A DNA stretch of 64,000 nt from Trypanosoma brucei (lineage: Eukaryota). The position numbers and the translations under genes were made by a program. The stretch spans positions 1,440,001-1,504,000 of the forward strand of contig CP000070.1 in the NCBI GenBank assembly GCA_000002445.1, read 5' to 3'. Positions within the stretch are counted from its first letter, which is position 1. Every line of letters begins with the position of its first letter. Positions 1 through 63,384 of the stretch are shown piece by piece. The notes beneath the pieces are model-generated. The model saw only the letters and a program-made list of their open reading frames with translations, did not search any database and was not told where the DNA came from.

Positions 1-261
1 AAAATGACAATGCATTAGTCCTTCCGTTGCAATATATAAATATGTATATATGTATATATGTATATGTGTATATTTATGTATATATATACATATTTATTTG
101 GATGTTTTACATATTTGTATGTTCCGCTTATATAAATAAATATATATATATACACATATTTAATTATTTTATTTTATTGTTTGTTCATTGACTTACCTGC
201 GCGCACATGTCCCCGAGTGTCCGTTTGCCTGTCTCCATTTACATGTGTACTTTTATGTGTT

Positions 262-265
<4 letters not shown>

Positions 266-304
<39 letters not shown>

Positions 305-345
305 TTGTGTGTATGTGTATGTGTATGTGTGTGTGTGTGTGTATG
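266..345. repeat. Compound microsatellite: (AT)n of about 17 units followed by an imperfect (TG)n.
   Basis: atatatat... at 266-298, then gtgtatgtgtatgtgtgtgtgtgtgtgtgt at 300-345. Confidence 0.9.
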
Positions 346-2639
346 GCTTCCCTTCTTTCTTTTATTATTGTTATTGTCAAATGTGCAATCTGGTACCTAT
401 CTTCTTCCTGTTTTTATTCCCCGATGGGTTGCCGTTGTTTTCTTTTTTCTTTTTCTTTTTTTTACTCCACTTGACATTATTTTATTTATTATTTTATGTC
501 CTGCTCCTTTTTTTGTTTGTTTTCCTCTTATTTCTCCTCCATCCCTTCTTTTTTTTATTTTACTGCATTTTCTTTTCTAATTTATTTTATTATATTAAAA
601 ATACTTTCGCCATGTCCCTCTATTTCGTATATTACCCGACTCTTTCTTTCATGTGGTTGTATCGCAATATATATTGCTATTGCTATTACTATTCCTCCTA
701 CTATTGTTATTGTTATCTTTTATTATTTTCAAAAAAAGAATTTTTCTGTTCAATTTCTAGTTTATGTATCACTTTTTATTTGTTTGTTTATCGCCTTTGC
801 GTTAAATAATAAATTTTATGAAAACAAAGAAGAAAGGGAAACAATCCGAAACAAAGTCTCGTTCCACACATTTTGATTCTTTTTTTTAATTGTTCCTTCT
901 TTTTTTTTTTTTAGATCTTCCTGTTTCAAACCCTTCATTTTCCTTTTTGTTTTATTTTTATTCTCACTTCTTTACTGCAACTTTTATTTATTTATTTTGT
1001 CCTCATTTTTTTTTTTATTTCCCCCCCTCTTCCTCACTAATTTCTTCTCACCACAAAATACACGTCAGTAATCGTTGTGTTTGAAATCATATACTTAAAA
1101 TATATATATATATATATATTTTTTTTTCTCTCCATATATTTCTCCTTCATTCAACTTTTTTTTGTCCGCTTACCTTTTTTATCCCTTCCTTTCTTCTTTA
1201 AAAAAAATAATAATTAATTATTTTAATTTAAATAACTTTTTAAAGGGGTAGAAACCTTCGCAGTGGTCCTTTTTTTTGTTTTTAATTTTTATTTCTTTCC
1301 ACCTGAATTGTCTATTTTCCTTTTTGAGTTTAACGTTTATTATTATCATTATTATTTCCTTCTGTTTTTCATTGTTATTATTTTTTTTAATTTTTATTTA
1401 CTTCGTAACAAAATAAATAAAAATCAGAGAGGAAAAAAAGGAAGTCCTCCCTCTTTCTTTTCTTTTCTTTTTTTTCCCCCCTCTTCCCCCTTCAACTCAT
1501 CACTCTGCTTTCTCTTCAACAACCACATAAGTAGAAATTTTTTTTAAAATAAAAAGCTGAAGGATCAAAGTTTATATATTCCTTTCGGTTTTATTTTTCC
1601 TATTTTTCCAATTTGTATTGATTATTAAATTCTTAAATTATTACTGTTATTATTTGTTGTTATTATTATTATTTTATTTGTTATTTCTCCTTATTTATTG
1701 TGTTATTTTAAAATTTTCTTCATAATTTTTGTGTTTTTCATATTCCTTCCTTCCTTCCATTCTTTCTTTCTTTCTTTAATACCTTTATTTGTAATCATAT
1801 TATTATATTATTATTATTTTGATCAACTCCATTATTTGTTTACTGCGGCTACCACACTTTCTGCTAAAAGTTTATTACAATAATAGTAATAAATGTTGTT
1901 ATTTTTATTTGTTGTTGTGATTTTACGTCTCTTGGTTCAAGAGGAGCTTAAATTTTTTTTGTCGCATGATTGTGAACAAATATATGCAATTGATATAAAT
2001 AAATATATATTTTTTTACATGTATGTATTTATATATGCATTTCCTGATGTGCTTATATCATTTATTCTATTGTCATGATTTCATCACTATTAAAATTGTG
2101 TGCCTGTGCCTTTCTCTCTCTCTGTCTGTCTGTGTGTTATGGTTATGGTTAGGGGGAGGCACCTTTCTTTCTTTCTTATCTTTTTTTTTTTAACCTCCCC
2201 CTTTTTAAAATTAATTAATTAATTAATTAATTTTTATTTAGTTATTTATATGTCTTTTTCTTCTCTTCCACCACCTGCTCCTCCTCCTCTATTTTTTTTA
2301 ATAAAAATATATATATTTACTATCTTTTTTTATTAATTGTTATTCTTCCATTAAATATATAAATAAATATTTATGTATCTCTTTTTTATGTATTAAATTT
2401 TCTTTACTTCCATTTTCGTTCCAGTCAGTTAAACTTGTTCCCGTTTATTTAACTAAATCCCCCCCCCCCACAAAAAAAAAAGAAAAAGAGGGAATATACA
2501 ACATTAATATATAAATGCGTGCGATATAGGTGGATCTTATTAGCCTTTTGTTTTTTTTTAAAAAATCCGTCTCTTGTATTTCATTACTTTTGTTGGTATA
2601 TATTTTAACCAATTGAGGACACAACAGCTATGATAATGA

Positions 2640-2712
2640 TGGTAATAATAAAAATATGTTGTTGTTACGATGATAATAATAATAATAATAAATATTATCA
2701 TTATTATTATTG
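2640..2712. repeat. (TAA)n / (TTA)n near-palindromic trinucleotide repeat.
   Basis: gataataataataataataaatattatcattattattattg is an inverted-symmetric arrangement. Confidence 0.8.
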
Positions 2713-5670
2713 CTATTGTGTCATATCATATCAGGGTTTCATTTATTTATAAATAAATATATATTGTTATTATATGATCGTGTGTGTTTGTGTTTTGACG
2801 TGGCTGTAGAGAAGGGGAGATTTATATTCAACTTTTTATTTGTTTTACATTTTCTTCGTTTTGTATGTATTTAAAAGAAGTAAAAATAAATAAATTAATA
2901 TATATATATATATATATATTAAAAATCTTAAGTGTCCTTCTGAGCTAAAGCTGTTGCGTGTTTATAAGAAAATGAAAAGAAAAAAAAGAAAAACGAAAGG
3001 GATAAATAGATAAAGGATCGGTGTAATAATTTTTGTTATTTGTTTATTTATATTTCCTCCCTCTTCCCTTTTATCTGTTTTTTTTCCGCATTTTCTTCGG
3101 GATTCGCTTCATCATTTATTTTGTTTATATATTTCTTTTCTTTTTTCTTTATCTTTTTCATTCGTAATTGTTATATTTATTCCCTTTTTTCCTTTTCTAT
3201 ATTTTCACCCCACTTTTATTATGATGTACATTTATATGCGTATCAAATCTGTCGATTTTATTTTATTTTATTGTTTTACTATTTTCTTTTTCTTTTGTTT
3301 CTTTTTGTTTTTTATTTTTATTTTATTATTATTATCATCATGTTGTGATGACTGTTTTTCTGTCCTCTCCTTTCAATTTACCATTTCTGTCTTTTTTTTA
3401 TATGTTGTTCCTATTATTTATGTCTTTTTTAAAAAAAAAAATAATTTTGGAGGAGGTCGTTGTTATTATTGTTAATACTACTTTTATTATTGTTGGTAAC
3501 TATGATAATGAGGATTGTATTATTATTATTATTATCGTTGTTATTTTCCAGCTACAATTGGGGTTGAAACGTGAGAGATGGAAAAAGAAACAATAGAAAC
3601 AAAAGAGTCAAAACGAAAAAGAGTAGAAAAGAAAAAAAGAAAAGAAATAATAATAATAATAATACAATATTGATGACAATAAAATATATAATGAATAGAA
3701 AATAAGGGAGATATGAGGCTAAAAACCCGTAGAAAAGTCACTTGGAAATATAAAACAATGAATATTTTCCAGTATGTTAAGCGAACCCGTGAACAAAATG
3801 AAAGTCAAATATCGGTAGCTATTTAAAAAGGGGGAAAAACAACAACGGCCGGAACAAATACGTAAAGAAGAGTTTATCAATCACACTTTGCACGTGTAGT
3901 GAAACTCGTTCAAATTGATTAATAGACTAATTAATTGATTAAATAATTAAAAAATCATTCAAATCATTCTTACCAACGCATCTTCCCACATTTATATAAC
4001 TATATATTTTTCAGTATTGATGTATTTTTTTCTTTTATATTTCGTAACTGTCTTTTTTTTTCCGCTTTTTTTAAAAAGAAAGAAAAATGCCTACTATGCT
4101 GCTTCGTATTTTATATTAGGCTTTTTTGACCATTTCAACCCCGACATTTACCATCAATAAAGATGGTAATAATGAAATATATATATATACATATATAACT
4201 ACGGGAGGCCTTTTATTAAATTACTATTATCGTTTTTGTTTTTGTATTGTAGACCTTCTGCCTTGAAGAAAACAAGGCATGGGTGTAGAGAGGGGAAAAA
4301 AAACTAGATGTACGAAGATAAAAAGCTTTCTCATTTACTCTCTTCTTTTTTGTGTGTTTTATTAACGTCTGTTCTTAATTTTTTTTTCTTCTTATTTCTT
4401 AATTTTATTTGTTTATATTTTACTGATGTTGTGGGAAATGCGGAAAGGAGCTACTCACTTTTTTTCTTCCACTGAAGGGGAAAAGGAAGAAAATTTAACA
4501 TATATATTTTTCATAACTAAATGATAAAAGGGATTCGAGCCGGAGAAATATAAAAAAAAATGGGGAAAGAAGAAAAGAGAGAGATATGGAGTTAAATAGG
4601 TTTGTTACGTCTGAAAAACCTTTTGTGTATAAGTAAATAATATTAATATATATATTAATATTATATTATATATATGTTTGGTATTTAAATTTCTTATAAG
4701 GGGAAAACGATTATACGTAATGCACATATAAGTATTTACAATTATATATATTTACATATTCATACGCCTATACATTCACGTATACACACTTTTTTGATCA
4801 CTTATATTTATATTCACTTATATTAATTTGATTAGCATTGGTATATATGTATGACTGTACTTGTAGACCTCTGTTTGATACATTTCATATGGAAGAAAGG
4901 AGAAGAAGGGGGAGGGAAATGAAAAAAAGAAAATGAAAGAGAAAATGGCTCTCTACTGGGATAAAAACAGGAAAATAAAATTAGGGGGGAGAAGGTGCTT
5001 GCAAAGGGAAAACGACTCTTTTTTTGTTTTGTTTTTTTATTTTTATTTTTTGTTATTTATTTGTACGCGTCTGTTTCCGGCCTAAGTTGCGCACGGGGAG
5101 TTCGGGGGGCTGTTTATTATTATTATTATTATTTTCCCGGTTTCCACCGCTTTTTGTCGTTAGTGTTTATGCTTTTGTGTTTCGGGGGAGCAACGCACAA
5201 CTGTCACTTTGTCTTCGACGTGTCCTTTTGTGCATGCTTTAAAAAAATTTTTTATTTACTTGTTGTGAGCCTTGGAGGGAGGGAAGTTGCTTCACTGTTC
5301 CTTTTCTATTATTTTTTCCTTATTTTTATTTTGGTCTCTCATCATTTTTAATGGGGGTTTTGTTTTAACTGACTGTTGTTATTTTTTTTCCCTAACTGTC
5401 TTCAATGTTTGAGCGACTGTTATAAATCTTGACTTTTGATTATTTTTATCTTTTATTATTTTATTATTTTGTTTGTTTTCCTTTTTTTTTAAAAAAACCT
5501 TTTCTCTTTCTGCGTGCGTGAGTATGTGTCTGTTTCCAGACTGACCACTTTCAAAAAGTGATTTTTTTGTACACGCAATTTGGTAATGCGATCTGGCATC
5601 AAAATGATGATAAAAATGATCTGCTTTTTAATCCCGTTGTTTCTTCTGTGTCTACCGTTTCATCAATAGT

Positions 5671-5714
5671 TTTTCTTTCCTTTCCACTTTCTTCTTTCTT
5701 TCTTTTTTTTCCTA
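5671..5714 (+). promoter_or_regulatory. Polypyrimidine tract upstream of the first gene. With the ttcttttcag AG at 5906-5917 it gives a likely spliced-leader acceptor and polyadenylation guide region.
   Basis: A CT-rich run ttttctttcctttccactttcttctttctttctttttttt, and a separate cttttcag AG 14 nt upstream of the ATG at 5932. Confidence 0.45.
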
Positions 5715-5931
5715 TTCATGAAGGGCCTCCGTGTAACCCTTTGCCTTTTTGTGATTAATACAAGCACATAATAAAACAAGCTGAAGAAAAAGGGTAGAAG
5801 GAAAGGAGAGGGACGAAAAGGAAACTGGGAGGAGAGGAGAGGAGGGGGGAGAAAGATTTTTCTCACAGCCTCCAACGACTACGACAGACTGTATTTCTGC
5901 ACTTGATTTCTTTTCAGGTGAGGAAGAGCGG

Positions 5932-10533: not shown

Positions 10534-12195
10534 ATGTATACAACAACAGACCTCATACAGACGCGGGTCGCTCCAGCACACTTGTTTGTTATTGTCTACT
10601 TTCTACAGTGGTTGTTTGTGGCGAGTACCGCATCTGGCGAGAGTGTTCATGCGATCTTCAAAATATCGAAATCTGGAGATGCACCCTTCTTCAAACAAGC
10701 TGAGAGGCACTGCGAGCGCGCTAAAATGCGTCTTGCGACGCCGACGACGGCAAAGGGGGCGACTGCTGTGAAGAAGTTGCTGAAACGCTGCGGTCCATCT
10801 GATGTACCCGTACTTGGCGGTGGCCTAAGCGTGCGATGCAGCAGTAACTCTTTTTTCTTCTTGTGGTCACCGAAACTGGATGAACCCAAGTACCCTGTTG
10901 AGGACACAGCACCATACTGCGGGGAACGCGATCCGCGAGGGTGGGGGACCAAGTGTGTGACAAGGAACAGGAGTGCGGGGAGGTTATTTTACCAATTTCA
11001 TACATCTGAGGGCGAGAAAGGGAACTGTACCGGACCTGTGACAATGGACTATGACCCGGCGATTCTCTATGAATTGGAGGTCCCTAGTGCTGGTGAGGAG
11101 GGTCTCCTCGCATGGGTTGTCTCGCGTGGTGGCAAGAACGGAAGCACTGCTGCGCTTAGGAGCCTTCGATCAGACTTGGAGGACACATCCCGCGCATACA
11201 TTGGAGATTCGAGCAAAATGATCGAGTACGTCCTGTGTGAGGGTGGAAGGTCCTCCGTCGTGTCTTCCACATCATGCTATTCCGTTTCTTATGCTTCTGT
11301 GCCAAATGTTGGCGGTTCAAGTCGAACGGGTGTTCATTGGTTGGTGATTGTCTTCCTCTCCTTCATCGGATTGATTGTGTTATGTGTAGTAACCCTGTCT
11401 ATTGTCGGTGGAGTTACGAAAAAAGTAACCGCAGGGAATGTTGATCGGGGAGACAACACTGGTAGTGGACGGCGACGAACCTCTTTGTCTCACAGCAGCT
11501 GGCATGTAATGAGCCAACCAGGAGGCAGCAGCGGGATTCAATATTCTCGTCGTGGTAGCCAGCCGGGTAACATCCTTTCTCCGCTTCAAGATGCTGCGAG
11601 CATTAACATGCAACGCTATGAAAGCGATGGGGTAGCCGCTGTACCTCGGCAAGGAAGCTTTAACGGCAGAAACACACAACAGCGAAGTAGTTTACCAACA
11701 AACGTAAATCAAGCGCAACAAAATTACAACACAAACAGAGTTACGTCACAAGTAAGCAATTATAGCGCAAGCTTACATCGTCTCGGGAGCTTCCGTGGCC
11801 CCATCATCCATCGTCAAGGAAGCTTCAACAACATTACCTCCGTACCAGCAGGGAATACCTATACTGGGGGTTTATCGCGTCCTGGGAGCTTCCGTGGCTC
11901 AAGCCCCAACCATCAAGGAAGTTTTAACCGTAGTGATATATTTCGCGATCCTAGTCTCTATGGTGAATCTCCTCCTCACGGTGATCCACGCTTGGGTTTA
12001 AACCCTCTTCGGGACATTGGCTACGACAGGGGAAATGCCCCAGAGCAGGTGAGCCTTTCTTCGGTCGGTATGGCCCAACAGGGCAACTTTGCAAACGTTG
12101 GTGCACGTGGCGGGAGCTTCCGAGGAATAAACCGCAACCAACAAGGAAGTTTCCGCAACTCGAACCCGCCGTCTGGTGGTTTGTTTAACACGTAG
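10534..12195 (+). CDS. Type-I membrane protein (553 aa), paralogue A. It has a signal peptide, a Cys-containing ectodomain, one transmembrane helix, and a Ser/Gly/Asn/Gln-rich cytoplasmic tail with reiterated R-x-G-S-F motifs.
   Basis: ATG at 10534. N-terminal hydrophobic segment LFVIVYFLQWLFVASTASG. Transmembrane helix VHWLVIVFLSFIGLIVLCVVTLSIVGGV. The tail contains RRGSQ, RQGSFN, RLGSFRG, RQGSFNN, RPGSFRG, HQGSFNR, RGGSFRG and QQGSFRN. Confidence 0.8.
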   Translation: MYTTTDLIQTRVAPAHLFVIVYFLQWLFVASTASGESVHAIFKISKSGDAPFFKQAERHCERAKMRLATPTTAKGATAVKKLLKRCGPSDVPVLGGGLSVRCSSNSFFFLWSPKLDEPKYPVEDTAPYCGERDPRGWGTKCVTRNRSAGRLFYQFHTSEGEKGNCTGPVTMDYDPAILYELEVPSAGEEGLLAWVVSRGGKNGSTAALRSLRSDLEDTSRAYIGDSSKMIEYVLCEGGRSSVVSSTSCYSVSYASVPNVGGSSRTGVHWLVIVFLSFIGLIVLCVVTLSIVGGVTKKVTAGNVDRGDNTGSGRRRTSLSHSSWHVMSQPGGSSGIQYSRRGSQPGNILSPLQDAASINMQRYESDGVAAVPRQGSFNGRNTQQRSSLPTNVNQAQQNYNTNRVTSQVSNYSASLHRLGSFRGPIIHRQGSFNNITSVPAGNTYTGGLSRPGSFRGSSPNHQGSFNRSDIFRDPSLYGESPPHGDPRLGLNPLRDIGYDRGNAPEQVSLSSVGMAQQGNFANVGARGGSFRGINRNQQGSFRNSNPPSGGLFNT

Positions 12196-13365: not shown

Positions 13366-16086
13366 ATGTCTGCCTCTCGATCTCCCTCTGGCAGTGGGAG
13401 TTTGTATCCCGCTGGCACCATGTCAACGGGATGTTCCCTGCCTTCATTGACGTGTCCCCCGAAACTTGGTGTGGGCAAGGTTGAGGGCAGTAGCGACACT
13501 GTTTCCATGGAGCGCTCGCAAGCTGGCAGCCAGTGGGCCGGCGGGACACATGCTGAAGAAGTGTGGGCATGCAAAAATGCTGCTTACACCAGGGCAATGA
13601 AATATTCCAAAGGATTGGTTGCGGACGTGGTGGATAGTTCGGTAGAATTCCTGCCACGCCGTCTCATGAGGAGTTCTGTGAACCACAGTATAAAGGACAG
13701 GAAATCGTCTTTCAGTGTCATGGCTGATGTTGGGCGCGACACGCAACAGCAATCTTTGGCTGCCACAAGCTGCAAAGGTACTTCATCCACTCCCATGAGT
13801 GAAGCCACATTCCCATTCCTTGACGGTGGGAAGGTACAACCAACGGATCCAGGGCACCTAAAAGCTGGAATTACGTACGATCCGCAGTCGTATGGATCGC
13901 TTTTACCCACGACGCTGAAGGTACGATCCGTTGAGGAAGCTGTGAGTGGCCCTCTAATGGGGGTTGCGGCTAACGAAATGTTTGCAAACCGAGATGCTAA
14001 ACAGATGTTGAGGGGTATTCTCCAGCCGGTACAGAAGACTTCGCAATTTTCACAGTACTTTGATCGACAACAGTTTGAGGGTAAAATGAGGCAGTTGGAG
14101 GAAAGCGCGCGACACTTCAGCAAATGTCTTGCTCAGCGTGTGTCTTCCAGTACCGGTGGTGGTGGTGTGATGATTGTCGTAAACGATTCTGATGATGGGA
14201 GCTCCGACGACGGTGGTTTGATGGGTGACGGTGTGAGACGCAGAGCTCGAAAGCCCGCCAAAATGGTAGACGAAGCGCGAGTAGCTGGCGACGCTGAATC
14301 TAATGCCCGGAAACAGCGACTTAACGCACTTCGTTGCACTCCACAGAATCTTTGTAGCTCGGTGGCGTTGCGTGATGCGTTGAAGAAAAGCAGGATTACG
14401 GTGAAGAAAGCACGATGCAGTGCTGTTAATGTAGCAAGACACAGCTCTGATCTACTGGAGCTTCTGCGGAGGAGAGGATCGAGGAGCACTGGTCCCCAGG
14501 AAGCGATGGTTGTTTTGCCCAACGAAGAGGTTTCATGGGACACGGGATCTGTTTCACCGAATAAGTGTACCCAAGCCTCATTTGCGTCGATACCGGATTC
14601 TGCATGTGGTAATGAGGGTCACCGCACCAAGGTTGTTACAGACCAGCGCGCTGTAACAATGCTGGAGTCGTTTTTGCGCAGCGGCAAGGGATTGACGACT
14701 CATGGTATTTTACCTGCAACACTGTATGGCAATCACTGTGGCCCCAATGGCGGCCAGTTGATCCCTGCACCAGAATCTTCGCGGTTACCATCAATGCTAG
14801 ATACTGCTTTCAGTGATGTTTTCTCCACTGGTGCATTATCACCAAGTGGGCAGCAGCTAGCGGCATCAGCAGAGTGCTTGCAACAGCAGAGGAAAAGTGT
14901 CCACCGTACGAAACCAGCCCGCCGTGTGATTCCTGTTGGTTACGGGATGAGTGCTCGTGCCCGTCAAAACTACGAGGCGATGGTGGAGAACTGGGAGGTG
15001 AGTGAGATCGAGCAAGAGCTTCGGAACGGGGAAGCATTATGCCACGCCCGCCGTCGGCTGCTGAAGCTCGTGTCTGAGCGCAAACGGTTGTTAAACGCGT
15101 CGCTCGCGCACTTCCACCATAACCCGCAGCAAGCCGTGTCGCTGCAGCGGCGTGAGATATTCCGGATGGTTGTCGAGGTTGATGCCGAGGACCGTAAGCA
15201 GGCGTGTTTTTCATTTGTTGATTTGCTTGAACAGTGCTGCCGGAACACTCTGGATGATGCCGCATGGTCTGTTGTTTCCGGCGCCTTGAAGTCTAGCCGC
15301 GATCTTATCCAACTCTCTCCACTACGGTGCAACCCGCAGAATTTCATTTCCATTCTGAACGACTGTCTGTCATTGCAGCATATCCGGGATCAGCGCGTTC
15401 AAGATGCTCTACAGTGGTTAGCAAAACTCTTTGGTGTATCGCAAGGGCAATTCAAGTCTGCACTACAATCATTGCACCACAACCTCAACAAGCCACGCGA
15501 TTACGAGGCACGGTTCCATGAAATTGACAGCCGCGTGTGTGGGATAGCAGCGTCCACTGAGAGACGTGTTCGTATTAAACTGCGCCGTTGCAACTTTCAG
15601 CTTCCCCGTCCTGTGGGTGCTGGCAACCAAATGAACCCCCTTGTCACCAGCAATGGTGATGGCGCTGTGGGCTGTGTGTTGGGTCCCAACACCTGTGTTG
15701 ATCGTCCTGAAGTATCGCTCGTTTTTCAGCTGGGAAATGAAACTGCCGTCTCCTCAACACTCAGCGCTCATCGTAGCGGTACCGGAGGGAGTGGTGATGT
15801 GGTGTGTGAGATGGTTGATGACGCCCCGTGCTATGTGGTTGACTTCAATGACGAAATTGTGCAGCTGAAGACTGTGGACACCAGTGTGGTACGCGTCTCT
15901 CTTTACTGCAACGGCAACGTTCTTTGCAGTGGCTTCTTGCACCTGTCCAAGTGTACTTTCCACAGTAATCGTACCTTATCTGTCATTCTTCGTCTCGACA
16001 ACAAAAGAATATTTGTGGCTGATCTGAGGATCAATGTGGAGCTTGTGTATGGAAGGGACCGCCGGGGGCGGGGTGGGAGAAGGTAG
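13366..16086 (+). CDS. Hypothetical protein of 906 aa (copy A). It has no recognisable domain and an acidic Asp/Ser-rich patch flanked by basic stretches.
   Basis: ATG-initiated 2.7-kb ORF duplicated at 19902-22622; the two copies differ at 3 amino-acid positions. Confidence 0.75.
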   Translation: MSASRSPSGSGSLYPAGTMSTGCSLPSLTCPPKLGVGKVEGSSDTVSMERSQAGSQWAGGTHAEEVWACKNAAYTRAMKYSKGLVADVVDSSVEFLPRRLMRSSVNHSIKDRKSSFSVMADVGRDTQQQSLAATSCKGTSSTPMSEATFPFLDGGKVQPTDPGHLKAGITYDPQSYGSLLPTTLKVRSVEEAVSGPLMGVAANEMFANRDAKQMLRGILQPVQKTSQFSQYFDRQQFEGKMRQLEESARHFSKCLAQRVSSSTGGGGVMIVVNDSDDGSSDDGGLMGDGVRRRARKPAKMVDEARVAGDAESNARKQRLNALRCTPQNLCSSVALRDALKKSRITVKKARCSAVNVARHSSDLLELLRRRGSRSTGPQEAMVVLPNEEVSWDTGSVSPNKCTQASFASIPDSACGNEGHRTKVVTDQRAVTMLESFLRSGKGLTTHGILPATLYGNHCGPNGGQLIPAPESSRLPSMLDTAFSDVFSTGALSPSGQQLAASAECLQQQRKSVHRTKPARRVIPVGYGMSARARQNYEAMVENWEVSEIEQELRNGEALCHARRRLLKLVSERKRLLNASLAHFHHNPQQAVSLQRREIFRMVVEVDAEDRKQACFSFVDLLEQCCRNTLDDAAWSVVSGALKSSRDLIQLSPLRCNPQNFISILNDCLSLQHIRDQRVQDALQWLAKLFGVSQGQFKSALQSLHHNLNKPRDYEARFHEIDSRVCGIAASTERRVRIKLRRCNFQLPRPVGAGNQMNPLVTSNGDGAVGCVLGPNTCVDRPEVSLVFQLGNETAVSSTLSAHRSGTGGSGDVVCEMVDDAPCYVVDFNDEIVQLKTVDTSVVRVSLYCNGNVLCSGFLHLSKCTFHSNRTLSVILRLDNKRIFVADLRINVELVYGRDRRGRGGRR

Positions 16087-17112: not shown

Positions 17113-18735
17113 ATGTATACAACAACAGACCTCATACAGACGCGGGTCGCTCCAGCACACTTGTTTGTTATTGTCTACTTTCTACAGTGGTTGTTTGTGG
17201 CGAGTACCGCATCTGGCGAGAGTGTTCATGCGATCTTCAAAATATCGAAATCTGGAGATGCACCCTTCTTCAAACAAGCTGAGAGGCACTGCGAGCGCGC
17301 TAAAATGCGTCTTGCGACGCCGACGACGGCAAAGGGGGCGACTGCTGTGAAGAAGTTGCTGAAACGCTGCGGTCCATCTGATGTACCCGTACTTGGCGGT
17401 GGCCTAAGCGTGCGATGCAGCAGTAACTCTTTTTTCTTCTTGTGGTCACCGAAACTGGATGAACCCAAGTACCCTGTTGAGGACACAGCACCATACTGCG
17501 GGGAACGCGATCCGCGAGGGTGGGGGACCAAGTGTGTGACAAGGAACAGGAGTGCGGGGAGGTTATTTTACCAATTTCATACATCTGAGGGCGAGAAAGG
17601 GAACTGTACCGGACCTGTGACAATGGACTATGACCCGGCGATTCTCTATGAATTGGAGGTCCCTAGTGCTGGTGAGGAGGGTCTCCTCGCATGGGTTGTC
17701 TCGCGTGGTGGCAAGAACGGAAGCACTGCTGCGCTTAGGAGCCTTCGATCAGACTTGGAGGACACATCCCGCGCATACATTGGAGATTCGAGCAAAATGA
17801 TCGAGTACGTCCTGTGTGAGGGTGGAAGGTCCTCCGTCGTGTCTTCCACATCATGCTATTCCGTTCCTTTTATCCTATCAGTTGCAAGTAGCGATGACAA
17901 GTCGCATTTTGATCATCGGCACAACGTCACTATTGGTATATTGGTTTTAATTGTTTTAATTTTAATTATTGTAGCCGCTTTCTTAATTTTGTGGCTCCTT
18001 TCACGGAACCGTCCGGCAGGTGATGTTGAGGAAAACCGGCGCAACGGATCAGATGTACAGAGAACTGTCGTTGAGTCGGTTGGTGATTTAGGTGGAACTG
18101 TTAGATCCGAAAGCTACTCGGGGCGAGGTAGCAAGTCGGGTGACAATCTTTGTCGTCCGGAAAATGTAAACGGTAATTGTCCCCAGGTGAATAATGGATT
18201 CTGTGTTAACGGATCCCCCCAACAAGAAAATTTGCAAATGAATGCCCCTGGACAACAACCAAATTTTAACTACCACAGCACAACACCCGAAATACAAACA
18301 TACAGTGGCGAAATGGAACTACGGACTAACTTTGGTGGTCCTATCTTGTACCGCCAAGGAAGCTTCAGACAAAATATAACCTCCGACGTCAATCCAACAC
18401 CGCTAAGCGCCACACAGCGTCCTGGGAGCTTCCGTGGCTCAAGCCCCAACCATCAGGGTTGTTTCAACCGTAGTGATGTATTTCGTGAGCCTAGTCTCTA
18501 TGGTGAATCTCCTCCTCACGGTGATCCACGCTTGGGTTTAAACCATCCTCGGGACATTGGCTACGACAGGGGAAATGCCCCGGAGCAGGTGAGCCTTTCT
18601 TCGGTCGGTATGGCCCAACAGGGCAACTTTGCAAACGTTGGTGCACGTGGCGGGAACTTCCGAGGAATAAACCGCAACCAACAAGGAAGTTTCCGCAACT
18701 CGAACCCGCCGTCTGGTGGTTTGTTTAACACGTAG
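17113..18735 (+). CDS. Type-I membrane protein (540 aa), paralogue B. The N-terminal 263 aa are identical to paralogue A. The transmembrane and juxtamembrane segment is diverged. The C-terminal ~100 aa are near-identical.
   Basis: ATG at 17113. Transmembrane helix IGILVLIVLILIIVAAFLILWLL. The tail carries YRQGSFRQN, RPGSFRG, GGNFRG and QQGSFRN. Confidence 0.8.
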   Translation: MYTTTDLIQTRVAPAHLFVIVYFLQWLFVASTASGESVHAIFKISKSGDAPFFKQAERHCERAKMRLATPTTAKGATAVKKLLKRCGPSDVPVLGGGLSVRCSSNSFFFLWSPKLDEPKYPVEDTAPYCGERDPRGWGTKCVTRNRSAGRLFYQFHTSEGEKGNCTGPVTMDYDPAILYELEVPSAGEEGLLAWVVSRGGKNGSTAALRSLRSDLEDTSRAYIGDSSKMIEYVLCEGGRSSVVSSTSCYSVPFILSVASSDDKSHFDHRHNVTIGILVLIVLILIIVAAFLILWLLSRNRPAGDVEENRRNGSDVQRTVVESVGDLGGTVRSESYSGRGSKSGDNLCRPENVNGNCPQVNNGFCVNGSPQQENLQMNAPGQQPNFNYHSTTPEIQTYSGEMELRTNFGGPILYRQGSFRQNITSDVNPTPLSATQRPGSFRGSSPNHQGCFNRSDVFREPSLYGESPPHGDPRLGLNHPRDIGYDRGNAPEQVSLSSVGMAQQGNFANVGARGGNFRGINRNQQGSFRNSNPPSGGLFNT

Positions 18736-19901: not shown

Positions 19902-22622
19902 ATGTCTGCCTCTCGATCTCCCTCTGGCAGTGGGAGTTTGTATCCCGCTGGCACCATGTCAACGGGATGTTCCCTGCCTTCATTGACGTGTCCCCCGAAA
20001 CTTGGTGTGGGCAAGGTTGAGGGCAGTAGCGACACTGTTTCCATGGAGCGCTCGCAAGCTGGCAGCCAGTGGGCCGGCGGGACACATGCTGAAGAAGTGT
20101 GGGCATGCAAAAATGCTGCTTACACCAGGGCAATGAAATATTCCAAAGGATTGGTTGCGGACGTGGTGGATAGTTCGGTAGAATTCCTGCCACGCCGTCT
20201 CATGAGGAGTTCTGTGAACCACAGTATAAAGGACAGGAAATCGTCTTTCAGTGTCATGGCTGATGTTGGGCGCGACACGCAACAGCAATCTTTGGCTGCC
20301 ACAAGCTGCAAAGGTACTTCATCCACTCCCATGAGTGAAGCCACATTCCCATTCCTTGACGGTGGGAAGGTACAACCAACGGATCCAGGGCACCTAAAAG
20401 CTGGAATTACGTACGATCCGCAGTCGTATGGATCGCTTTTACCCACGACGCTGAAGGTACGATCCGTTGAGGAAGCTGTGAGTGGCCCTCTAATGGGGGT
20501 TGCGGCTAACGAAATGTTTGCAAACCGAGATGCTAAACAGATGTTGAGGGGTATTCTCCAGCCGGTACAGAAGACTTCGCAATTTTCACAGTACTTTGAT
20601 CGACAACAGTTTGAGGGTAAAATGAGGCAGTTGGAGGAAAGCGCGCGACACTTCAGCAAATGTCTTGCTCAGCGTGTGTCTTCCAGTACCGGTGGTGGTG
20701 GTGTGATGATTGTCGTAAACGATTCTGATGATGGGAGCTCCGACGACGGTGGTTTGATGGGTGACGGTGTGAGACGCAGAGCTCGAAAGCCCGCCAAAAT
20801 GGTAGACGAAGCGCGAGTAGCTGGCGACGCTGAATCTAATGCCCGGAAACAGCGACTTAACGCACTTCGTTGCACTCCACAGAATCTTTGTAGCTCGGTG
20901 GCGTTGCGTGATGCGTTGAAGAAAAGCAGGATTACGGTGAAGAAAGCACGATGCAGTGCTGTTAATGTAGCAAGACACAGCTCTGATCTACTGGAGCTTC
21001 TGCGGAGGAGAGGATCGAGGAGCACTGGTCCCCAGGAAGCGATGGTTGTTTTGCCCAACGAAGAGGTTTCATGGGACACGGGATCTGTTTCACCGAATAA
21101 GTGTACCCAAGCCTCATTTGCGTCGATACCGGATTCTGCATGTGGTAATGAGGGTCACCGCACCAAGGTTGTTACAGACCAGCGCGCTGTAACAATGCTG
21201 GAGTCGTTTTTGCGCAGCGGCAAGGGATTGACGACTCATGGTATTTTACCTGCAACACTGTATGGCAATCACTGTGGCCCCAATGGCGGCCAGTTGATCT
21301 CTGCACCAGAATCTTCGCGGTTACCATCAATGCTAGATACTGCTTTCAGTGATGTTTTCTCCACTGGTGCATTATCACCAAGTGGGCAGCAGCTAGCGGC
21401 ATCAGCAGAGTGCTTGCAACAGCAGAGGAAAAGTGTCCACCGTACGAAACCAGCCCGCCGTGTGATTCCTGTTGGTTACGGGATGAGTGCTCGTGCCCGT
21501 CAAAACTACGAGGCGATGGTGGAGAACTGGGAGGTGAGTGAGATCGAGCAAGAGCTTCGGAACGGGGAAGCATTATGCCACGCCCGCCGTCGGCTGCTGA
21601 AGCTCGTGTCTGAGCGCAAACGGTTGTTAAACGCGTCGCTCGCGCACTTCCACCATAACCCGCAGCAAGCCGTATCGCTGCAGCGGCGTGAGATATTCCG
21701 GATGGTTGTCGAGGTTGATGCCGAGGACCGTAAGCAGGCGTGTTTTTCATTTGTTGATTTGCTTGAACAGTGCTGCCGGAACACTCTGGATGATGCCGCA
21801 TGGTCTGTTGTTTCCGGCGCCTTGAAGTCTAGCCGCGATCTTATCCAACTCTCTCCACTACGGTGCAACCCGCAGAATTTCATTTCCATTCTGAACGACT
21901 GTCTGTCATTGCAGCATATCCGGGATCAGCGCGTTCAAGATGCTCTACAGTGGTTAGCAAAACTCTTTGGTGTATCGCAAGGGCAATTCAAGTCTGCACT
22001 ACAATCATTGCACCACAACCTCAACAAGCCACGCGATTACGAGGCACGGTTCCATGAAATTGACAGCCGCGTGTGTGGGATAGCAGCGTCCACTGAGAGA
22101 CGTGTTCGTATTAAACTGCGCCGTTGCAACTTTCAGCTTCCCCGTCCTGTGGGTGCTGGCAGCCAAATGAACCCCCTTGTCACCAGCAATGGTGATGGCG
22201 CTGTGGGCTGTGTGTTGGGTCCCAACACCTGTGTTGATCGTCCTGAAGTATCGCTCGTTTTTCAGCTGGGAAATGAAACTGCCGTCTCCTCAACACTCAG
22301 CGCTCATCGTAGCGGTACCGGAGGGAGTGGTGATGTGGTGTGTGAGATGGTTGATGACGCCCCGTGCTATGTGGTTGACTTCAATGACGAAATTGTGCAG
22401 CTGAAGCCTGTGGACACCAGTGTGGTACGCGTCTCTCTGTCCTGCAACGGCAACGTTCTTTGCAGTGGCTTCTTGCACCTGTCCAAGTGTACCTTCCACA
22501 GTAATCGTACCTTATCTGTCATTCTTCGTCTCGACAACAAAAGAATATTTGTGGCTGATCTGAGGATCAATGTGGAGCTTGTGTATGGAAGGGACCGCCG
22601 GGGGCGGGGTGGGAGAAGGTAG
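19902..22622 (+). CDS. Hypothetical protein of 906 aa (copy B).
   Basis: Substitutions relative to copy A: P to S at IPAPESS / ISAPESS, N to S at GAGNQ / GAGSQ, and T to P with Y to S at LKTVDTSVVRVSLY / LKPVDTSVVRVSLS. Confidence 0.75.
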   Translation: MSASRSPSGSGSLYPAGTMSTGCSLPSLTCPPKLGVGKVEGSSDTVSMERSQAGSQWAGGTHAEEVWACKNAAYTRAMKYSKGLVADVVDSSVEFLPRRLMRSSVNHSIKDRKSSFSVMADVGRDTQQQSLAATSCKGTSSTPMSEATFPFLDGGKVQPTDPGHLKAGITYDPQSYGSLLPTTLKVRSVEEAVSGPLMGVAANEMFANRDAKQMLRGILQPVQKTSQFSQYFDRQQFEGKMRQLEESARHFSKCLAQRVSSSTGGGGVMIVVNDSDDGSSDDGGLMGDGVRRRARKPAKMVDEARVAGDAESNARKQRLNALRCTPQNLCSSVALRDALKKSRITVKKARCSAVNVARHSSDLLELLRRRGSRSTGPQEAMVVLPNEEVSWDTGSVSPNKCTQASFASIPDSACGNEGHRTKVVTDQRAVTMLESFLRSGKGLTTHGILPATLYGNHCGPNGGQLISAPESSRLPSMLDTAFSDVFSTGALSPSGQQLAASAECLQQQRKSVHRTKPARRVIPVGYGMSARARQNYEAMVENWEVSEIEQELRNGEALCHARRRLLKLVSERKRLLNASLAHFHHNPQQAVSLQRREIFRMVVEVDAEDRKQACFSFVDLLEQCCRNTLDDAAWSVVSGALKSSRDLIQLSPLRCNPQNFISILNDCLSLQHIRDQRVQDALQWLAKLFGVSQGQFKSALQSLHHNLNKPRDYEARFHEIDSRVCGIAASTERRVRIKLRRCNFQLPRPVGAGSQMNPLVTSNGDGAVGCVLGPNTCVDRPEVSLVFQLGNETAVSSTLSAHRSGTGGSGDVVCEMVDDAPCYVVDFNDEIVQLKPVDTSVVRVSLSCNGNVLCSGFLHLSKCTFHSNRTLSVILRLDNKRIFVADLRINVELVYGRDRRGRGGRR

Positions 22623-60015: not shown

Positions 60016-60235
60016 TTCCACCTGACTTCGTTGTCTTGCCCTCATTTTTATCTTCGTTACACGTTTGCTTCACTGATGGAAACGGAGTCGACGTTGGGAA
60101 GCATGGAAATGAAAAGGGGAAGAGAGGAGTCACACTAAAGCGAAGGGACCACAAGTAACATGAGCGAATAATGTGGGTTCTGTTTTGTGCACCCCGTTGT
60201 TGTGGATGCCAGTTACTCTAGTCAGTTTTGTGGAT

Positions 60236-60701
60236 CAGCTGTCCACGCCCGAACAAACCAGCAACCGAGTAATTGTTGTGGTTGATTGAAGGTTTGCGAA
60301 GCAAATCTACCACCTTCAGTTGTGTCCTTGTGCACCGAACCTCTCGGTTTCAGTGAATGTTGTGTGGTGACTGTTTTCTTTCCTTTTCTTTGTTCTTTTC
60401 GTTCTTTCCGTGTCATATCTCCTCTTTTTTCCTCGGACAGATGATGTTTATCGATTTCGAAACTTACTCACACTTGAGGCTCCTGCGACCAGGACCCTCT
60501 TTCCTGTTTTTTCTGGATGGTGGAGGATTTATGAATCATTGTGGCTGTGCAACATATCTGTTTAACACCTCTACTGCACTCATCGTCCCTCCACAATTAT
60601 GTTCCGTTGTTTCCTTAATTTGCTTTTAGAAAGGTAAGCTCTGGTATTCGTTTGCTCTTCACAATATGTTGGGGAAACATATTTTCACTTGTTATGACGA
60701 T
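60236..60701 (+). repeat. 466-bp direct repeat copy 1, lying upstream of the first MOB1 gene. It contains a long polypyrimidine tract.
   Basis: Near-identical to 62551-63016 (offset 2315 bp). The tract is ttttctttccttttctttgttcttttcgttctttccgtgtcatatctcctcttttttcctcggacag. Confidence 0.9.
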
Positions 60702-61092
60702 GCTGCTGCTTGCTTTTGCGTTGAGCAAATCAATCACCCGTCGCAACACTGTTAAAACTAAACTGTGACGCGAGAACAAAACCACACTACCAGTACGCTG
60801 GAGCTGTTGTTTTGCATGCCTAAATGTATCTGTAAACCAAAGCTGGTGAATGCTCCGTACCTAAATGTGAAAAAGTTGGATGTGCAAGGAGGCAGCTAGC
60901 TAGCTTATCTCCTAGCGAGTCGGATCTTCTTAATATATTTCTTCTCTTTCCCATAATGACGTTCAATGCGAGCACTCGGGCACAAGAAAAAAAAGAATGT
61001 TCCCTACTTTCATCCCTCCCTTTATTCAATTTGTTTAAAATAAAAGCATTGTGGTAAAATAAATTCCACAAGCGGCATAGAAAATTATTCTC

Positions 61093-61719
61093 ATGGAAAA
61101 GCATAAGGAAGGAACTGAACGTTACAACCTCCACAAGTTTGCCAAATCACTTGTGCGCTCAGGTGACCTCAGTGCTGCTGTAAAGCTACCGCAAGGTACA
61201 GATCTGAATCATTGGCTTTCCGTACACACTGTAGATTTCTACAACATCACTAATGTTTTGTACGGCTCTCTAACAGAGTTTTGCACGAACAGCAGTTGTC
61301 CTGTCATGTCGTCAGGTCCACGCTATGAGTATTTATGGCGTGACCCGCCGGAATATCCAAAAGCAACGAAGGTGAGCGCACCGGAGTATGTGAGATTGTT
61401 GATGGAGTGGATCGAGCGGCAGATCAATGATGAACGTGTGTTTCCGTCTGAGGATCGTAATCCCTATCCACCAGATTTCGCGGATAGAGTGAAGGCGTGT
61501 TTCAAGCGACTGTTCCGCGTTTATGCACACGTTTACTATTCCCACTTTGCGAAGATTCGTGAGTTGCAGGAGGAATCTCACATCAACACCGCACTGAAAC
61601 ATTTTATGTATTTTGTGTGGGAATTTGATCTGATTCCTCGTGAGGAGGTGTCTCCGCTGCGTGAATTGCTGGTAAACTTAATGGGTCAGCGCGCGAAGGA
61701 AAAGTTGGAGGTTCCGTAA
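61093..61719 (+). CDS. MOB1: MOB1/phocein-family kinase co-activator, 208 aa. This is the short-N-terminus paralogue.
   Basis: Mob1 core: LPQGTDLNHWLSVHTVDFYNITNVLYGSLTEFCT..SCPVMSSGPRYEYLWRD...EYVRLLMEWIERQINDERVFPS..YPPDF...HVYYSHF. It starts MEKHKEG and so lacks the conserved N-terminal KPKK segment. Confidence 0.9.
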   Translation: MEKHKEGTERYNLHKFAKSLVRSGDLSAAVKLPQGTDLNHWLSVHTVDFYNITNVLYGSLTEFCTNSSCPVMSSGPRYEYLWRDPPEYPKATKVSAPEYVRLLMEWIERQINDERVFPSEDRNPYPPDFADRVKACFKRLFRVYAHVYYSHFAKIRELQEESHINTALKHFMYFVWEFDLIPREEVSPLRELLVNLMGQRAKEKLEVP

Positions 61720-63016: not shown

Positions 63017-63384
63017 ACTATAGGGAGCTGCATGTGAAGGACTGCCGTTGTGGGTCCTCGAGCGGCTGTGTGGATACAATAATCTTTCATTTCGCTTTTA
63101 CAAGCACTTGCGCGCATATTTCCTTCCATCTTCTTCTTGCCATGTGCCCGTCTTTTGCGGGTGCTACGCTAACTTGTCCAAAGGTAAAGAATGTTGGCGA
63201 CACAACATACCTGTTTGGGGAGGTGGTTGATCCTGGAAATTGCCGCTCGGAGAAATAACTCAGTTAATATTTATTGCGCCCTGGTACAAGTACACACCGG
63301 AGAGATGCCTGTTACCCATCTTGTCGGCATCACGCACTACTCACTCACCCCACCTTCACCAATCCGTCTATTCTAACAAGGCCT

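What the first reader, a model, noticed from the sequence alone, without database searches (positions are those of the whole stretch)
11500..12195. Cytoplasmic tail built from reiterated R-x-G-S-F motifs (basophilic-kinase / 14-3-3-type sites) on a type-I surface protein.
The tail of each paralogue contains about 8 copies of R/Q-x-G-S-F-[RN]. Three of them sit in a degenerate ~17-residue tandem unit, x-GSFRG-x5-QGSF-[NR]-[NR]: LGSFRGPIIHRQGSFNN, PGSFRGSSPNHQGSFNR and GGSFRGINRNQQGSFRN. R-x-x-S followed by a hydrophobic residue is the textbook PKA/AGC-kinase consensus and a mode-I 14-3-3 site. Their clustering on a predicted type-I membrane protein (signal peptide + Cys ectodomain + one transmembrane helix) suggests a receptor-like molecule whose tail acts as a multi-site phospho-switch. 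I do not recognise the family, so it may be a kinetoplastid-specific surface-signalling protein. The same motifs occur in copy B (18300-18735).
Basis: partly seen in the sequence, partly recalled or inferred. Interest (0 to 1): 0.65.

Follow-up and report, generated by a model that had tools for sequence, protein, structure and literature searches.

The report
Trypanosome lectin-like receptor, repeated kinase-site tail
The finding is real: two tandem Trypanosoma brucei genes encode a membrane protein with a C-type-lectin-like outer domain and a disordered inner tail that is a decayed array of 11-residue repeats, each carrying a conserved R-Q-G-S-F motif that looks like a kinase target, although phosphorylation of that serine is not yet shown.

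Summary
The window is T. brucei TREU927 chromosome 7. Copy A is ORF 10534-12195 (Tb927.7.5400 by inference). Copy B is ORF 17113-18735 (Tb927.7.5420, confirmed).

Observation: confirmed. Copy A has 7 GSF plus 1 GNF, against 0.21 GSF expected by shuffling. Copy B keeps Ser at only 3 of 6 sites.

What it is:
- Orthologues in T. congolense, T. vivax, T. cruzi, T. grayi, T. theileri and T. melophagium carry regular 10-12-residue repeats with the core hydrophobic-x-R-Q-[G/Q]-S-F.
- No homologue of the ectodomain was found outside Trypanosoma.
- Type-I topology is supported, including a published phosphosite in copy B's tail. That site is an S-P site, not a GSF serine.

Interpretation: partly supported. 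The motif fits a monobasic CaMK/PKD/SnRK-type consensus better than PKA. It does not fit 14-3-3 mode I (0 matches in 8 tails). No phosphorylation of a GSF serine was found in the data I could query, and surface location is untested.

Verdict: an uncharacterised, genus-specific receptor-like family. It is a good experimental lead but not a new kind of system.

The parts
10534..12195 (+). Copy A gene (553 aa; XP_846163 / Q582F5; Tb927.7.5400 by inference from consecutive accessions)
   Evidence: ORF list. Exact identity to P0005. Gene number inferred from lipin Tb927.7.5450 = AAX78871 and confirmed for the neighbouring copy B.
10534..10638 (+). Putative signal peptide (residues 1-35; hydrophobic core 12-35)
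   Evidence: Kyte-Doolittle segments. Every orthologue has an N-terminal hydrophobic segment. No SignalP run was possible, so the cleavage site is not defined.
10639..11283 (+). Ectodomain with C-type lectin-like fold (residues ~36-250; 8 Cys; sequons N145, N164, N202)
11329..11421 (+). Transmembrane helix (residues 266-296)
   Evidence: KD 19-residue maximum is 3.14. It is the only confident element in the full-length AF2 model, helix 266-296 with pLDDT 77-80.
11422..12192 (+). Cytoplasmic tail (residues 297-553): disordered, rich in Ser/Gly/Asn/Arg, 25 Arg and 0 Lys from residue 298 onward
   Evidence: AF2 shows no secondary structure and pLDDT below 50. Composition.
11539..11967 (+). Degenerate 11-residue tandem array in one register (residues 336-478, 13 units)
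   Evidence: Register print-out. Intact units are at 369, 413, 424, 446 and 457. Decayed units are at 336 (QYSRRGSQPGN), 358 (NMQRYESDGVA) and 468 (DIFRDPSLYGE).
11647..11661 (+). Motif 1 RQGSF (Ser375)
11779..11793 (+). Motif 2 RLGSF (Ser419), Leu at -5
11812..11826 (+). Motif 3 RQGSF (Ser430), Ile at -5; conserved in copy B and T. congolense
11878..11892 (+). Motif 4 RPGSF (Ser452), Leu at -5
11911..11925 (+). Motif 5 HQGSF (Ser463)
12076..12090 (+). Motif 6, serine lost: QQGNF (T. congolense has RRDSF here)
12106..12120 (+). Motif 7 RGGSF (Ser528)
12139..12153 (+). Motif 8 QQGSF (Ser539)
17113..18735 (+). Copy B gene (540 aa; XP_846165 / Q582F7 = Tb927.7.5420)
   Evidence: The gene ID and UniProt ID are paired in the supplement of PMC6907760.
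18352..18693 (+). Copy B motifs: RQGSF 18352-18366, RPGSF 18418-18432, HQGCF 18451-18465, QQGNF 18616-18630, RGGNF 18646-18660, QQGSF 18679-18693
18442..18444 (+). Codon of Ser444 of copy B. It is a published phosphosite in procyclic cells, on peptide GS-pS-PNHQGCFNR (an S-P site)
   Evidence: PMC6907760 supplement file 4, localisation probability 0.974. The cells were Lister 427 procyclic form.
11290..11877 (+). Divergent cassette in copy A (stalk, TM and proximal tail). Its counterpart in copy B is 17869-18417. The flanks of the 6.54-kb tandem duplication are 99.4% identical
   Evidence: blastn and MAFFT of the two units, BLASTP, repeat families D2, D4, D5 and D6.

Best explanation
Tb927.7.5400 and Tb927.7.5420 are tandem paralogues of a Trypanosoma-specific type-I membrane protein.

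Shown:
- The lumenal or extracellular part is a single, non-canonical C-type lectin-like domain.
- After one transmembrane helix comes a roughly 250-residue disordered, Arg-rich and Lys-poor tail.
- The tail descends from a tandem array of 10-12-residue units. Each unit carries the short linear motif hydrophobic(-5)-x-R(-3)-Q-G-S(0)-F(+1).
- In T. brucei and T. congolense the array has decayed, but the motif positions are preserved while the spacers drift.

Inferred: the motif serine is the acceptor of a basophilic Ser/Thr kinase of the CaMK/PKD/SnRK or monobasic AGC type. The tail would then work as a multi-site (graded or threshold) phospho-switch, or as a phosphorylation-dependent multivalent docking platform. 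This would couple whatever the lectin-like domain binds to the cell interior.
For: Motif is real and non-random:
- 7 GSF against 0.21 expected.

Motif is under selection:
- Motif columns are 62% identical between T. brucei and T. congolense, against 28% for spacers, p = 4e-5.
- All 7 species have the same architecture with regular arrays: T. melophagium MQRQGSFNGN, T. cruzi MxRQGSFAGGG, T. vivax NPMERQQSFRSG, T. theileri MSRQGSFNGAP.
- Consensus from 60 unique windows selected as S-[F/Y] sites: hydrophobic -5 in 39/60, R -3 in 45/60, Q -2 in 37/60, G -1 in 47/60, and Phe rather than Tyr at +1 in 56/60.
- Ser is the best-kept core position in degenerate units, at 0.87.
- T. vivax replaces Gly with Gln but keeps R, S and F. 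The kinase-relevant positions are therefore the constant ones.

Consensus fit:
- hydrophobic-x-R-x-x-S-hydrophobic matches 5, 2, 5, 9, 13, 13, 14 and 2 times in the eight tails.
- LxRxxS/T is the experimentally defined optimum of SnRK2/OST1 and of PKD. LHRQGSF and LLRQGSF are among the predicted optimal OST1 substrates (PMC2978106).

Topology and accessibility:
- TM helix and disordered tail.
- A phosphosite in copy B's tail shows the protein is expressed and the tail is kinase-accessible.
- R-x-x-S/T phosphorylation is widespread in T. brucei (PMC6440977).

Ectodomain fold.
Against: - No phosphorylation of any GSF serine was found. The one retrievable site is a neighbouring S-P serine.
- Neither gene occurs in the held text of the PKA-activation phosphoproteome, the DNA-damage phosphoproteome or two T. 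cruzi phosphoproteomes searched by peptide string. These searches were incomplete, because stored files are cut and the largest T. brucei data set is not held.
- 3 of the 7 copy-A serines lie in 5-residue tryptic peptides and 2 more in 7-residue ones. The absence of detected sites is therefore weak evidence.
- The serine is dispensable in some units. T. cruzi has Gly in 8 of 21 units (RQGGF, RPGGF), and copy B has Asn or Cys at 3 of 6.
- No kinase is identified.
- Localisation is unknown, and the protein is absent from the held text of the bloodstream surface proteome.
Confidence: 0.5

Rival explanations
1. The repeats are a phosphorylation-independent multivalent 'sticker' array. Regularly spaced Arg and Phe in a Gly/Ser/Asn/Gln spacer would mediate cation-pi or aromatic self-association, or bind a repeat-reading cytoskeletal or adaptor partner. 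The serine would be a spacer residue at most.
For: - R, G and F persist in units that lost Ser: T. cruzi RQGGF and RPGGF in 8 of 21 units, and copy B GNF and GCF.
- The T. theileri tail (QQGSFSGYPPQQGY) resembles [G/S]-aromatic-[G/S] low-complexity domains.
- The tail is fully disordered.
- Unrelated soluble trypanosome proteins carry the same repeat.
Against: - Ser is the most retained core position overall, at 0.87.
- The conserved hydrophobic -5, Arg -3 and Ser 0 spacing is exactly a kinase consensus. A generic sticker model does not require it.
- Tyr replaces Phe in only 4 of 60 sites. Aromatic stickers usually tolerate that swap.
Confidence: 0.22
2. The motifs are docking sites for a phospho-reader or a phosphatase: 14-3-3, or PP1 through RVxF-like units.
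For: - R-x-x-pS is the minimal core of many 14-3-3 sites.
- T. cruzi and T. theileri end their arrays with RRVSF. From my own knowledge, this is identical to the PP1-binding, PKA-regulated motif of the glycogen-targeting subunit GM.
Against: - 14-3-3 mode I matches 0 times in all 8 tails and mode II once. Pro at +2 is absent and Gly occupies -1, which as far as I recall is disfavoured in the ELM pattern.
- RVxF matches are absent in T. brucei, T. congolense, T. vivax, T. melophagium and T. grayi.
- The Gly at the 'V' position of RQGSF cannot fill the hydrophobic pocket of PP1.
Confidence: 0.1
3. The motif recurrence is only a by-product of low-complexity composition or of a recent DNA tandem duplication, with no function.
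For: The tail is compositionally biased: S 15%, G 14%, N 10%, R 10%.
Against: - No shuffle of 20,000 reached the observed count.
- There is no DNA tandem repeat and the codons differ between motifs.
- The motif is conserved positionally between T. brucei and T. congolense, and as a core across the 7 species sampled, in both the African-trypanosome and the T. cruzi/T. theileri lineages.
Confidence: 0.02

Closest known systems
Animal type-I membrane proteins with a single N-terminal C-type lectin-like domain (CD302/DCL-1, layilin, and the CD93/thrombomodulin group)
   Same: - Signal peptide, CTLD, one TM helix and a cytoplasmic tail.
- The C-terminal strand reads YVLCE, like the classical CTLD ending (sequence).
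   Different: - No detectable sequence homology: no Pfam Lectin_C hit and no PDB sequence hit.
- No EPN/QPD/WND calcium- or sugar-binding motifs.
- Large low-confidence loop insertions.
- The tail is unrelated to any animal CTLD receptor tail.
- Restricted to the genus Trypanosoma.
LxRxxS/T sites of CaMK-group kinases (SnRK2/OST1 on ABF transcription factors; PKD; CaMKII sites such as MHRQET and RQAS, the latter from my own knowledge)
   Same: The same spacing of hydrophobic -5, Arg -3 and Ser 0, often with Gln at -2. Arabidopsis LHRQGSF and LLRQGSF are predicted optimal OST1 substrates (PMC2978106). Copy A has LHRLGSF and IHRQGSF.
   Different: - Those are single or few sites in soluble regulators. 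Here there are 7 to about 20 copies in tandem on a membrane-protein tail.
- No trypanosome kinase has been tied to the motif.
- Phosphorylation is not shown.
Tandem or clustered phospho-acceptor arrays in disordered regions (RNA polymerase II CTD heptads; CFTR R domain with multiple PKA sites) - comparison from established knowledge
   Same: A disordered segment built from many copies of one kinase-consensus motif. This predicts graded or threshold behaviour and multivalent reader binding.
   Different: - Different motifs, kinases and cellular context.
- The CTD is proline-directed and nuclear.
- The R domain sites are dibasic and not tandem repeats.
- No functional data exist for the trypanosome tail.
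PP1-docking RVxF motif of PPP1R3A/GM (RRVSF) - from established knowledge
   Same: The T. cruzi and T. theileri orthologues contain an exact RRVSF at the end of the array.
   Different: The RVxF-type motif is absent from both T. brucei copies. The dominant unit has Gly where RVxF needs Val or Ile.

Membership tests
C-type lectin-like domain (CTLD) fold | Three-dimensional similarity to solved CTLDs | tested here: met
C-type lectin-like domain (CTLD) fold | Sequence-profile membership (Pfam Lectin_C PF00059) | tested here: not met
   No Pfam family at E <= 1 for either copy. No PDB sequence relative.
C-type lectin-like domain (CTLD) fold | Conserved framework cysteines (helix alpha-1 to last strand; beta-3 to post-beta-4 loop) | tested here: inconclusive
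   Cys60 (in predicted helix 1), Cys102, Cys129, Cys165 and Cys235 (in YVLCE, the last strand) are invariant in 7 species. Disulfide pairing could not be read from the model with these tools.
Calcium-dependent carbohydrate-binding C-type lectins | EPN or QPD tripeptide plus the WND motif | tested here: not met
   QPD and WND are absent in all 8 sequences. EPN occurs only in T. vivax, at a non-conserved position.
PKA-type dibasic site (R-R-x-S-hydrophobic) | Basic residues at both -3 and -2 | tested here: not met
   Position -2 is Gln in 37 of 60 unique sites and Arg in 8 of 60. Dibasic matches number 0-3 per tail. Neither gene is in the held text of the PKA-activation phosphoproteome supplement.
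CaMK/PKD/SnRK-type site (hydrophobic-x-R-x-x-S/T) | Hydrophobic residue at -5, Arg at -3, Ser/Thr at 0 | tested here: met
   [LIVMF]-x-R-x-x-[ST] occurs 6, 2, 6, 9, 15, 14, 15 and 3 times in the eight tails. The definition of the motif is from PMC2978106.
CaMK/PKD/SnRK-type site (hydrophobic-x-R-x-x-S/T) | The serine is phosphorylated in vivo | tested here: inconclusive
   Only S444 of copy B, an S-P site, was retrieved. Five other supplements were negative or not held. The stored files are truncated, and several motif serines lie in 5-7-residue tryptic peptides.
14-3-3 mode I site (R-S-x-pS-x-P) | Pro at +2 and Ser or an aromatic residue at -2 | tested here: not met
   0 matches in all 8 tails. 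R-x-x-S-x-P occurs once in copy A and once in T. cruzi.
PP1-docking RVxF motif | [RK]-x(0,1)-[VI]-{P}-[FW] | tested here: not met
   No match in either T. brucei copy. It is present only as RRVSF in T. cruzi and T. theileri.
FG-repeat (nucleoporin-like) domains | Repeated F-G dipeptides (FG, GLFG, FxFG) in a soluble or NPC-anchored protein | tested here: not met
   In the copy A motifs, Phe is followed by R or N (A in the GNF unit), never by G. The repeats lie on the cytoplasmic side of a type-I membrane protein.
Type-I membrane protein | Cleavable N-terminal signal, single TM helix, C-terminus in the cytoplasm | tested here: met
   Hydropathy, AF2 helix 266-296, basic residues after the TM (sequence), sequons and 8 Cys on the N-terminal side, and a tail phosphosite. 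Signal-peptide cleavage itself was not predicted with a dedicated tool.

The most novel reading that the evidence does not exclude
A Trypanosoma-specific lectin-like receptor senses an extracellular host or vector ligand. It reads this out through a tandem array of CaMK-type phospho-acceptor units, a 'CTD-like' phospho-code on a membrane receptor tail. The array would give graded or ultrasensitive signalling. The two T. brucei isoforms share the sensor and the distal tail but differ in a swapped TM/juxtamembrane cassette that routes them differently.
Probability: 0.2. Interest if true: 0.75.

Novelty: new variant of a known kind. Interest (0 to 1): 0.5.

Why it matters
Trypanosomes have very few recognised transmembrane receptors apart from the receptor-type adenylate cyclases, and how they sense host and vector cues is a long-standing gap.

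This family combines three features:
- A ligand-binding-type fold outside.
- A conserved, highly repeated kinase-consensus motif inside.
- Conservation across the seven Trypanosoma species sampled, which include both the African trypanosomes and the T. cruzi/T. theileri lineages, with no ectodomain homologue detected outside the genus.

That makes it a concrete and easily testable candidate for a sensing or adhesion receptor. It would also be a handle to identify the responsible basophilic kinase. If the repeats instead prove to be phosphorylation-independent, they define a new trypanosome short linear motif that also occurs in soluble proteins.

Tried and rejected
1. AF2 on the full-length protein with 3 sequences failed (pLDDT 31). 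Only the TM helix and the disorder of the tail were used from it.
2. The profile-against-PDB sequence search gave only chance hits (bL19, E 0.075).
3. The third word-index homologue search, using the ectodomain alignment, returned nothing. This is probably a retrieval failure. The exhaustive HMM search is what defines the family.
4. The afdb50 fold library was unavailable.
5. Supplement searches for the genes or peptides gave the following results:
   - Cell-cycle phosphoproteome: positive only for S444.
   - DNA-damage phosphoproteome: negative.
   - Nett 2009, the AAT10.2 2026 paper and Domingo-Sananes 2015: no supplements held.
   - Two T. cruzi phosphoproteomes: negative.
   - PKA-activation phosphoproteome: negative.
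   - Bloodstream surface proteome: negative.
   - Urbaniak 2013: not held.
6. No paper in the library mentions Tb927.7.5400 or Tb927.7.5420 in its main text. One preprint mentions XP_846165 for the lectin fold only.
7. A DNA tandem repeat as the origin of the motifs was rejected.
8. Arginine-methylation (RG/RGG) as the conserved feature was rejected. The 'FRG' context is confined to the African-trypanosome sequences (T. brucei, T. congolense), and other species mostly have N, S or A at +2. The neighbouring PRMT gene in the window is coincidental.
9. I also considered that the AT-rich start of the window is a centromere. No satellite was found there.
Full report
**Identity of the locus**

The window is Trypanosoma brucei brucei TREU927 chromosome 7. 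ORF 10534-12195 (553 aa, 'copy A') is identical to XP_846163/Q582F5. ORF 17113-18735 (540 aa, 'copy B') is identical to XP_846165/Q582F7. Both are annotated only as 'hypothetical protein, conserved'.

Downstream genes in the window are lipin, DHFR-TS, a PRMT, an FMN/FAD oxidoreductase (Oxidored_FMN + Pyr_redox_2) and a glutamine amidotransferase with SIS domains (GFAT-type). The lipin TbLpn is Tb927.7.5450 = AAX78871. The accessions run consecutively, from AAX78876 for copy A to AAX78874 for copy B. A phosphoproteome supplement pairs Tb927.7.5420 with Q582F7. Copy B is therefore Tb927.7.5420, and copy A is Tb927.7.5400 by inference.

The two copies lie in a 6.54-kb tandem duplication. The duplication also carries a 906-aa gene of unknown function.

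**Check of the observation**

The residues encoded by 11500-12195 are 323-553 of copy A.
- Copy A contains seven G-S-F tripeptides and one G-N-F, each preceded by R, Q or H three residues before the Ser.
- In 20,000 shuffles of the tail the mean number of GSF was 0.21, and none reached 7.
- 8 of the tail's 10 Phe residues are in G-[S/N]-F.
It has three GSF, plus GCF and two GNF.
- Tandem Repeats Finder sees no DNA repeat in the tail, and the motifs use different codons. The recurrence is therefore maintained at the protein level.

**What the repeats are**

Spacings between motifs are 44, 11, 22, 11, 65, 11 in copy A and 11, 22, 11, 55, 11, 11 in T. congolense. Printing copy A in an 11-residue register puts residues 336-478 in one frame. 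Intact units (AVPRQGSFNGR, SLHRLGSFRGP, IIHRQGSFNNI, GLSRPGSFRGS, SPNHQGSFNRS) alternate with decayed ones that still keep Arg and Ser in place (QYSRRGSQPGN, NMQRYESDGVA, DIFRDPSLYGE).

The origin becomes obvious in other species.
- The word-index search found only T. congolense and T. theileri.
- An exhaustive HMMER search of 1.84 billion representatives, using a 4-sequence profile, added T. melophagium, T. cruzi, T. vivax and T. grayi.
- No protein outside Trypanosoma matched the ectodomain. The remaining hits matched only the TM or repeat part.

All orthologues have the same architecture. Their tails are regular tandem arrays:
- MQRQGSFNGN (period 10) in T. melophagium
- M[QS]RQGSFAGGG (period 11) in T. 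cruzi
- MSRQGSFNGAP (period 11) in T. theileri
- NPMERQQSFRSG (period 12) in T. vivax

Sixty unique windows selected as S-[F/Y] sites give the consensus G-G-[MLIV]-[SQ]-R-Q-G-S-F-[NSR]-G. Position -5 is hydrophobic in 39/60, -3 is Arg in 45/60, -2 is Gln in 37/60, -1 is Gly in 47/60, and +1 is Phe rather than Tyr in 56/60.

Among units that keep at least 3 of the 5 core residues, retention is S 0.87, G 0.86, F 0.83, R 0.76 and Q 0.59. T. vivax swaps Gly for Gln but keeps R, S and F.

Between T. brucei and T. congolense the motif columns are 62% identical, against 28% for the rest of the tail (p = 4e-5).

In T. theileri the gene is single-copy and is flanked by an orthologue of the 906-aa gene (26% identity, E 4e-69) and by genes matching the sizes of the other neighbours. 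The duplication therefore arose on the T. brucei side.

**Topology and ectodomain**

Hydropathy shows an N-terminal hydrophobic segment (residues 12-35) and one strong segment at 263-299. The full-length AF2 model was poor overall (pLDDT 31). Its only confident element was helix 266-296, and it gave no secondary structure for 297-553.

The N-terminal side carries 8 Cys and three N-x-S/T sequons. The C-terminal side starts with basic residues and carries a published phosphosite. This supports a type-I orientation.

AF2 on the ectodomain alone, with a 7-species alignment, gave pLDDT 71 and pTM 0.74.
- Foldseek's top hits were also CTLDs, but with weak E-values.

There is no Pfam Lectin_C match, no PDB sequence relative and no conserved EPN/QPD/WND motif. 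The domain is therefore a divergent, probably non-canonical CTLD, and its ligand is unknown.

**How it most likely works**

The constant features of the unit are a hydrophobic residue at -5, Arg at -3, Ser at 0 and Phe at +1. These are the determinants of CaMK-group, PKD and SnRK kinases, and of monobasic AGC sites.
- LxRxxS/T is the experimentally derived optimum of Arabidopsis OST1/SnRK2 and is identical to the PKD motif. LHRQGSF and LLRQGSF are listed among predicted optimal OST1 substrates (PMC2978106). Copy A has LHRLGSF and IHRQGSF.
- From my own knowledge, classical CaMKII sites (MHRQET, RQAS) share the R-Q at -3/-2.
- The pattern hydrophobic-x-R-x-x-S-hydrophobic occurs 5, 2, 5, 9, 13, 13, 14 and 2 times in the eight tails. 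Dibasic PKA-type sites number 0-3, and 14-3-3 mode I sites number 0.
- R-x-x-S/T phosphorylation is abundant and inducible in T. brucei (PMC6440977).

I therefore read the tail as a multi-site acceptor array for a basophilic kinase. It would act as a graded or threshold switch, or as a phospho-dependent multivalent platform, beneath a lectin-like sensor. The architecture, the motif and its conservation are shown. The phosphorylation, the kinase and the signalling role are inferred.

**Evidence against, and rivals**

I could not find a phosphorylated GSF serine.
- The only site retrieved, Tb927.7.5420 S444 in procyclic cells, is the second Ser of G-S-S-P on peptide GSSPNHQGCFNR (localisation probability 0.974). 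In copy B that peptide has Cys where copy A has the motif Ser.
- Neither gene is in the held text of the PKA-activation phosphoproteome or the DNA-damage set.
- T. cruzi repeat peptides are absent from two T. cruzi data sets.

These negatives are weak. Stored supplements are truncated and the largest T. brucei set is not held. Trypsin also cuts the motif into LGSFR, GGSFR, QGSFR, QGSFNGR and NQQGSFR.

More telling is that Ser is replaced by Gly in 8 of 21 T. cruzi units, and by Asn or Cys in half of copy B's units, while R, G and F stay. This keeps a phosphorylation-independent 'sticker' or docking model alive, at about 0.2.

A 14-3-3 or PP1 docking role is unlikely for T. brucei. T. cruzi and T. 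theileri do end their arrays with an exact RRVSF, the PP1-binding motif of GM.

A chance or compositional origin is excluded.

Surface exposure is not shown. The protein is absent from the held text of the bloodstream surface proteome.

**Novelty and verdict**

No paper in the library discusses either gene apart from the fold assignment in one preprint. The repeat motif, its 11-residue ancestry, the genus-wide family and the mosaic structure of the two paralogues appear undescribed.

In kind, it is a receptor-like type-I protein with a known extracellular fold and a disordered multi-site tail. I rate it a new variant of known kinds rather than a new category.

It is a solid and cheap-to-test lead for trypanosome environmental sensing. 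My confidence in the proposed mechanism is moderate (0.5), and I score interest at 0.5.

Noticed in passing
window 11290-11877 versus 17869-18417: Inside tandem duplicates that are otherwise 99.4% identical over about 5.8 kb, a block of about 590 bp is unalignable at the DNA level. It encodes the stalk, the TM helix and the proximal 150 residues of the tail. Copy A's version resembles T. congolense and copy B's does not. This suggests gene conversion of the flanks around an old or replaced cassette, giving two isoforms with the same ectodomain and distal tail.
   Followed up: partly
window 1-5900: A region of 25-32% GC lies upstream of the first + strand gene. It has short AT/TG simple repeats, no long satellite and no convincing ORF (the 200-aa ORF at 207-809 has no Pfam hit). 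All large ORFs in the window are on the + strand, so this may be a strand-switch or transcription-start region.
   Followed up: partly
window 60235-63739: A second tandem duplication, with a unit of about 2.3 kb and 99-100% identity, carries a MOB1/phocein gene (ORF 61093-61719, Pfam E 2.6e-70). The second copy runs off the end of the window.
   Followed up: partly
window 13366-16086 and 19902-22622: The 906-aa gene duplicated together with the lectin-like gene has no Pfam domain. It is conserved and syntenic in T. theileri (26% identity, E 4e-69). If the gene numbering holds, one copy (Tb927.7.5430) was a yeast two-hybrid hit for SF3a60 (PMC3961280).
   Followed up: partly
P0010 (T. cruzi XP_815320) residues 585-590; P0008 (T. 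theileri) residues 492-497: The last repeat unit is RRVSF, an exact RVxF-type PP1-docking motif with a phosphorylatable Ser. It is absent from the African trypanosome orthologues.
   Followed up: partly
P0017 (T. melophagium XP_067189477, 291 aa) and P0021 (T. grayi XP_009312520, 170 aa): These are soluble proteins with no TM segment, unrelated to each other outside the repeats. They carry tandem [L/M]-Q-[R/Q]-x-G-S-F-x-G units. The motif is therefore not confined to the lectin-like receptor family.
   Followed up: partly
copy A residues 298-553 and the orthologous tails: The tails are Arg-rich and almost Lys-free (copy A has 25 R and 0 K; orthologues have 20-32 R and 0-3 K, with T. cruzi at 8 K). 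In a parasite where Lys ubiquitylation drives turnover of surface proteins, this may matter for stability.
   Followed up: no
bioRxiv 10.64898/2026.06.15.732286: The preprint places XP_846165.1 at a 'sub-telomeric locus on Chromosome 04' and reports only two homologues. Here the gene lies in the chromosome 7 core, next to lipin and DHFR-TS, and has orthologues in six other Trypanosoma species.
   Followed up: yes
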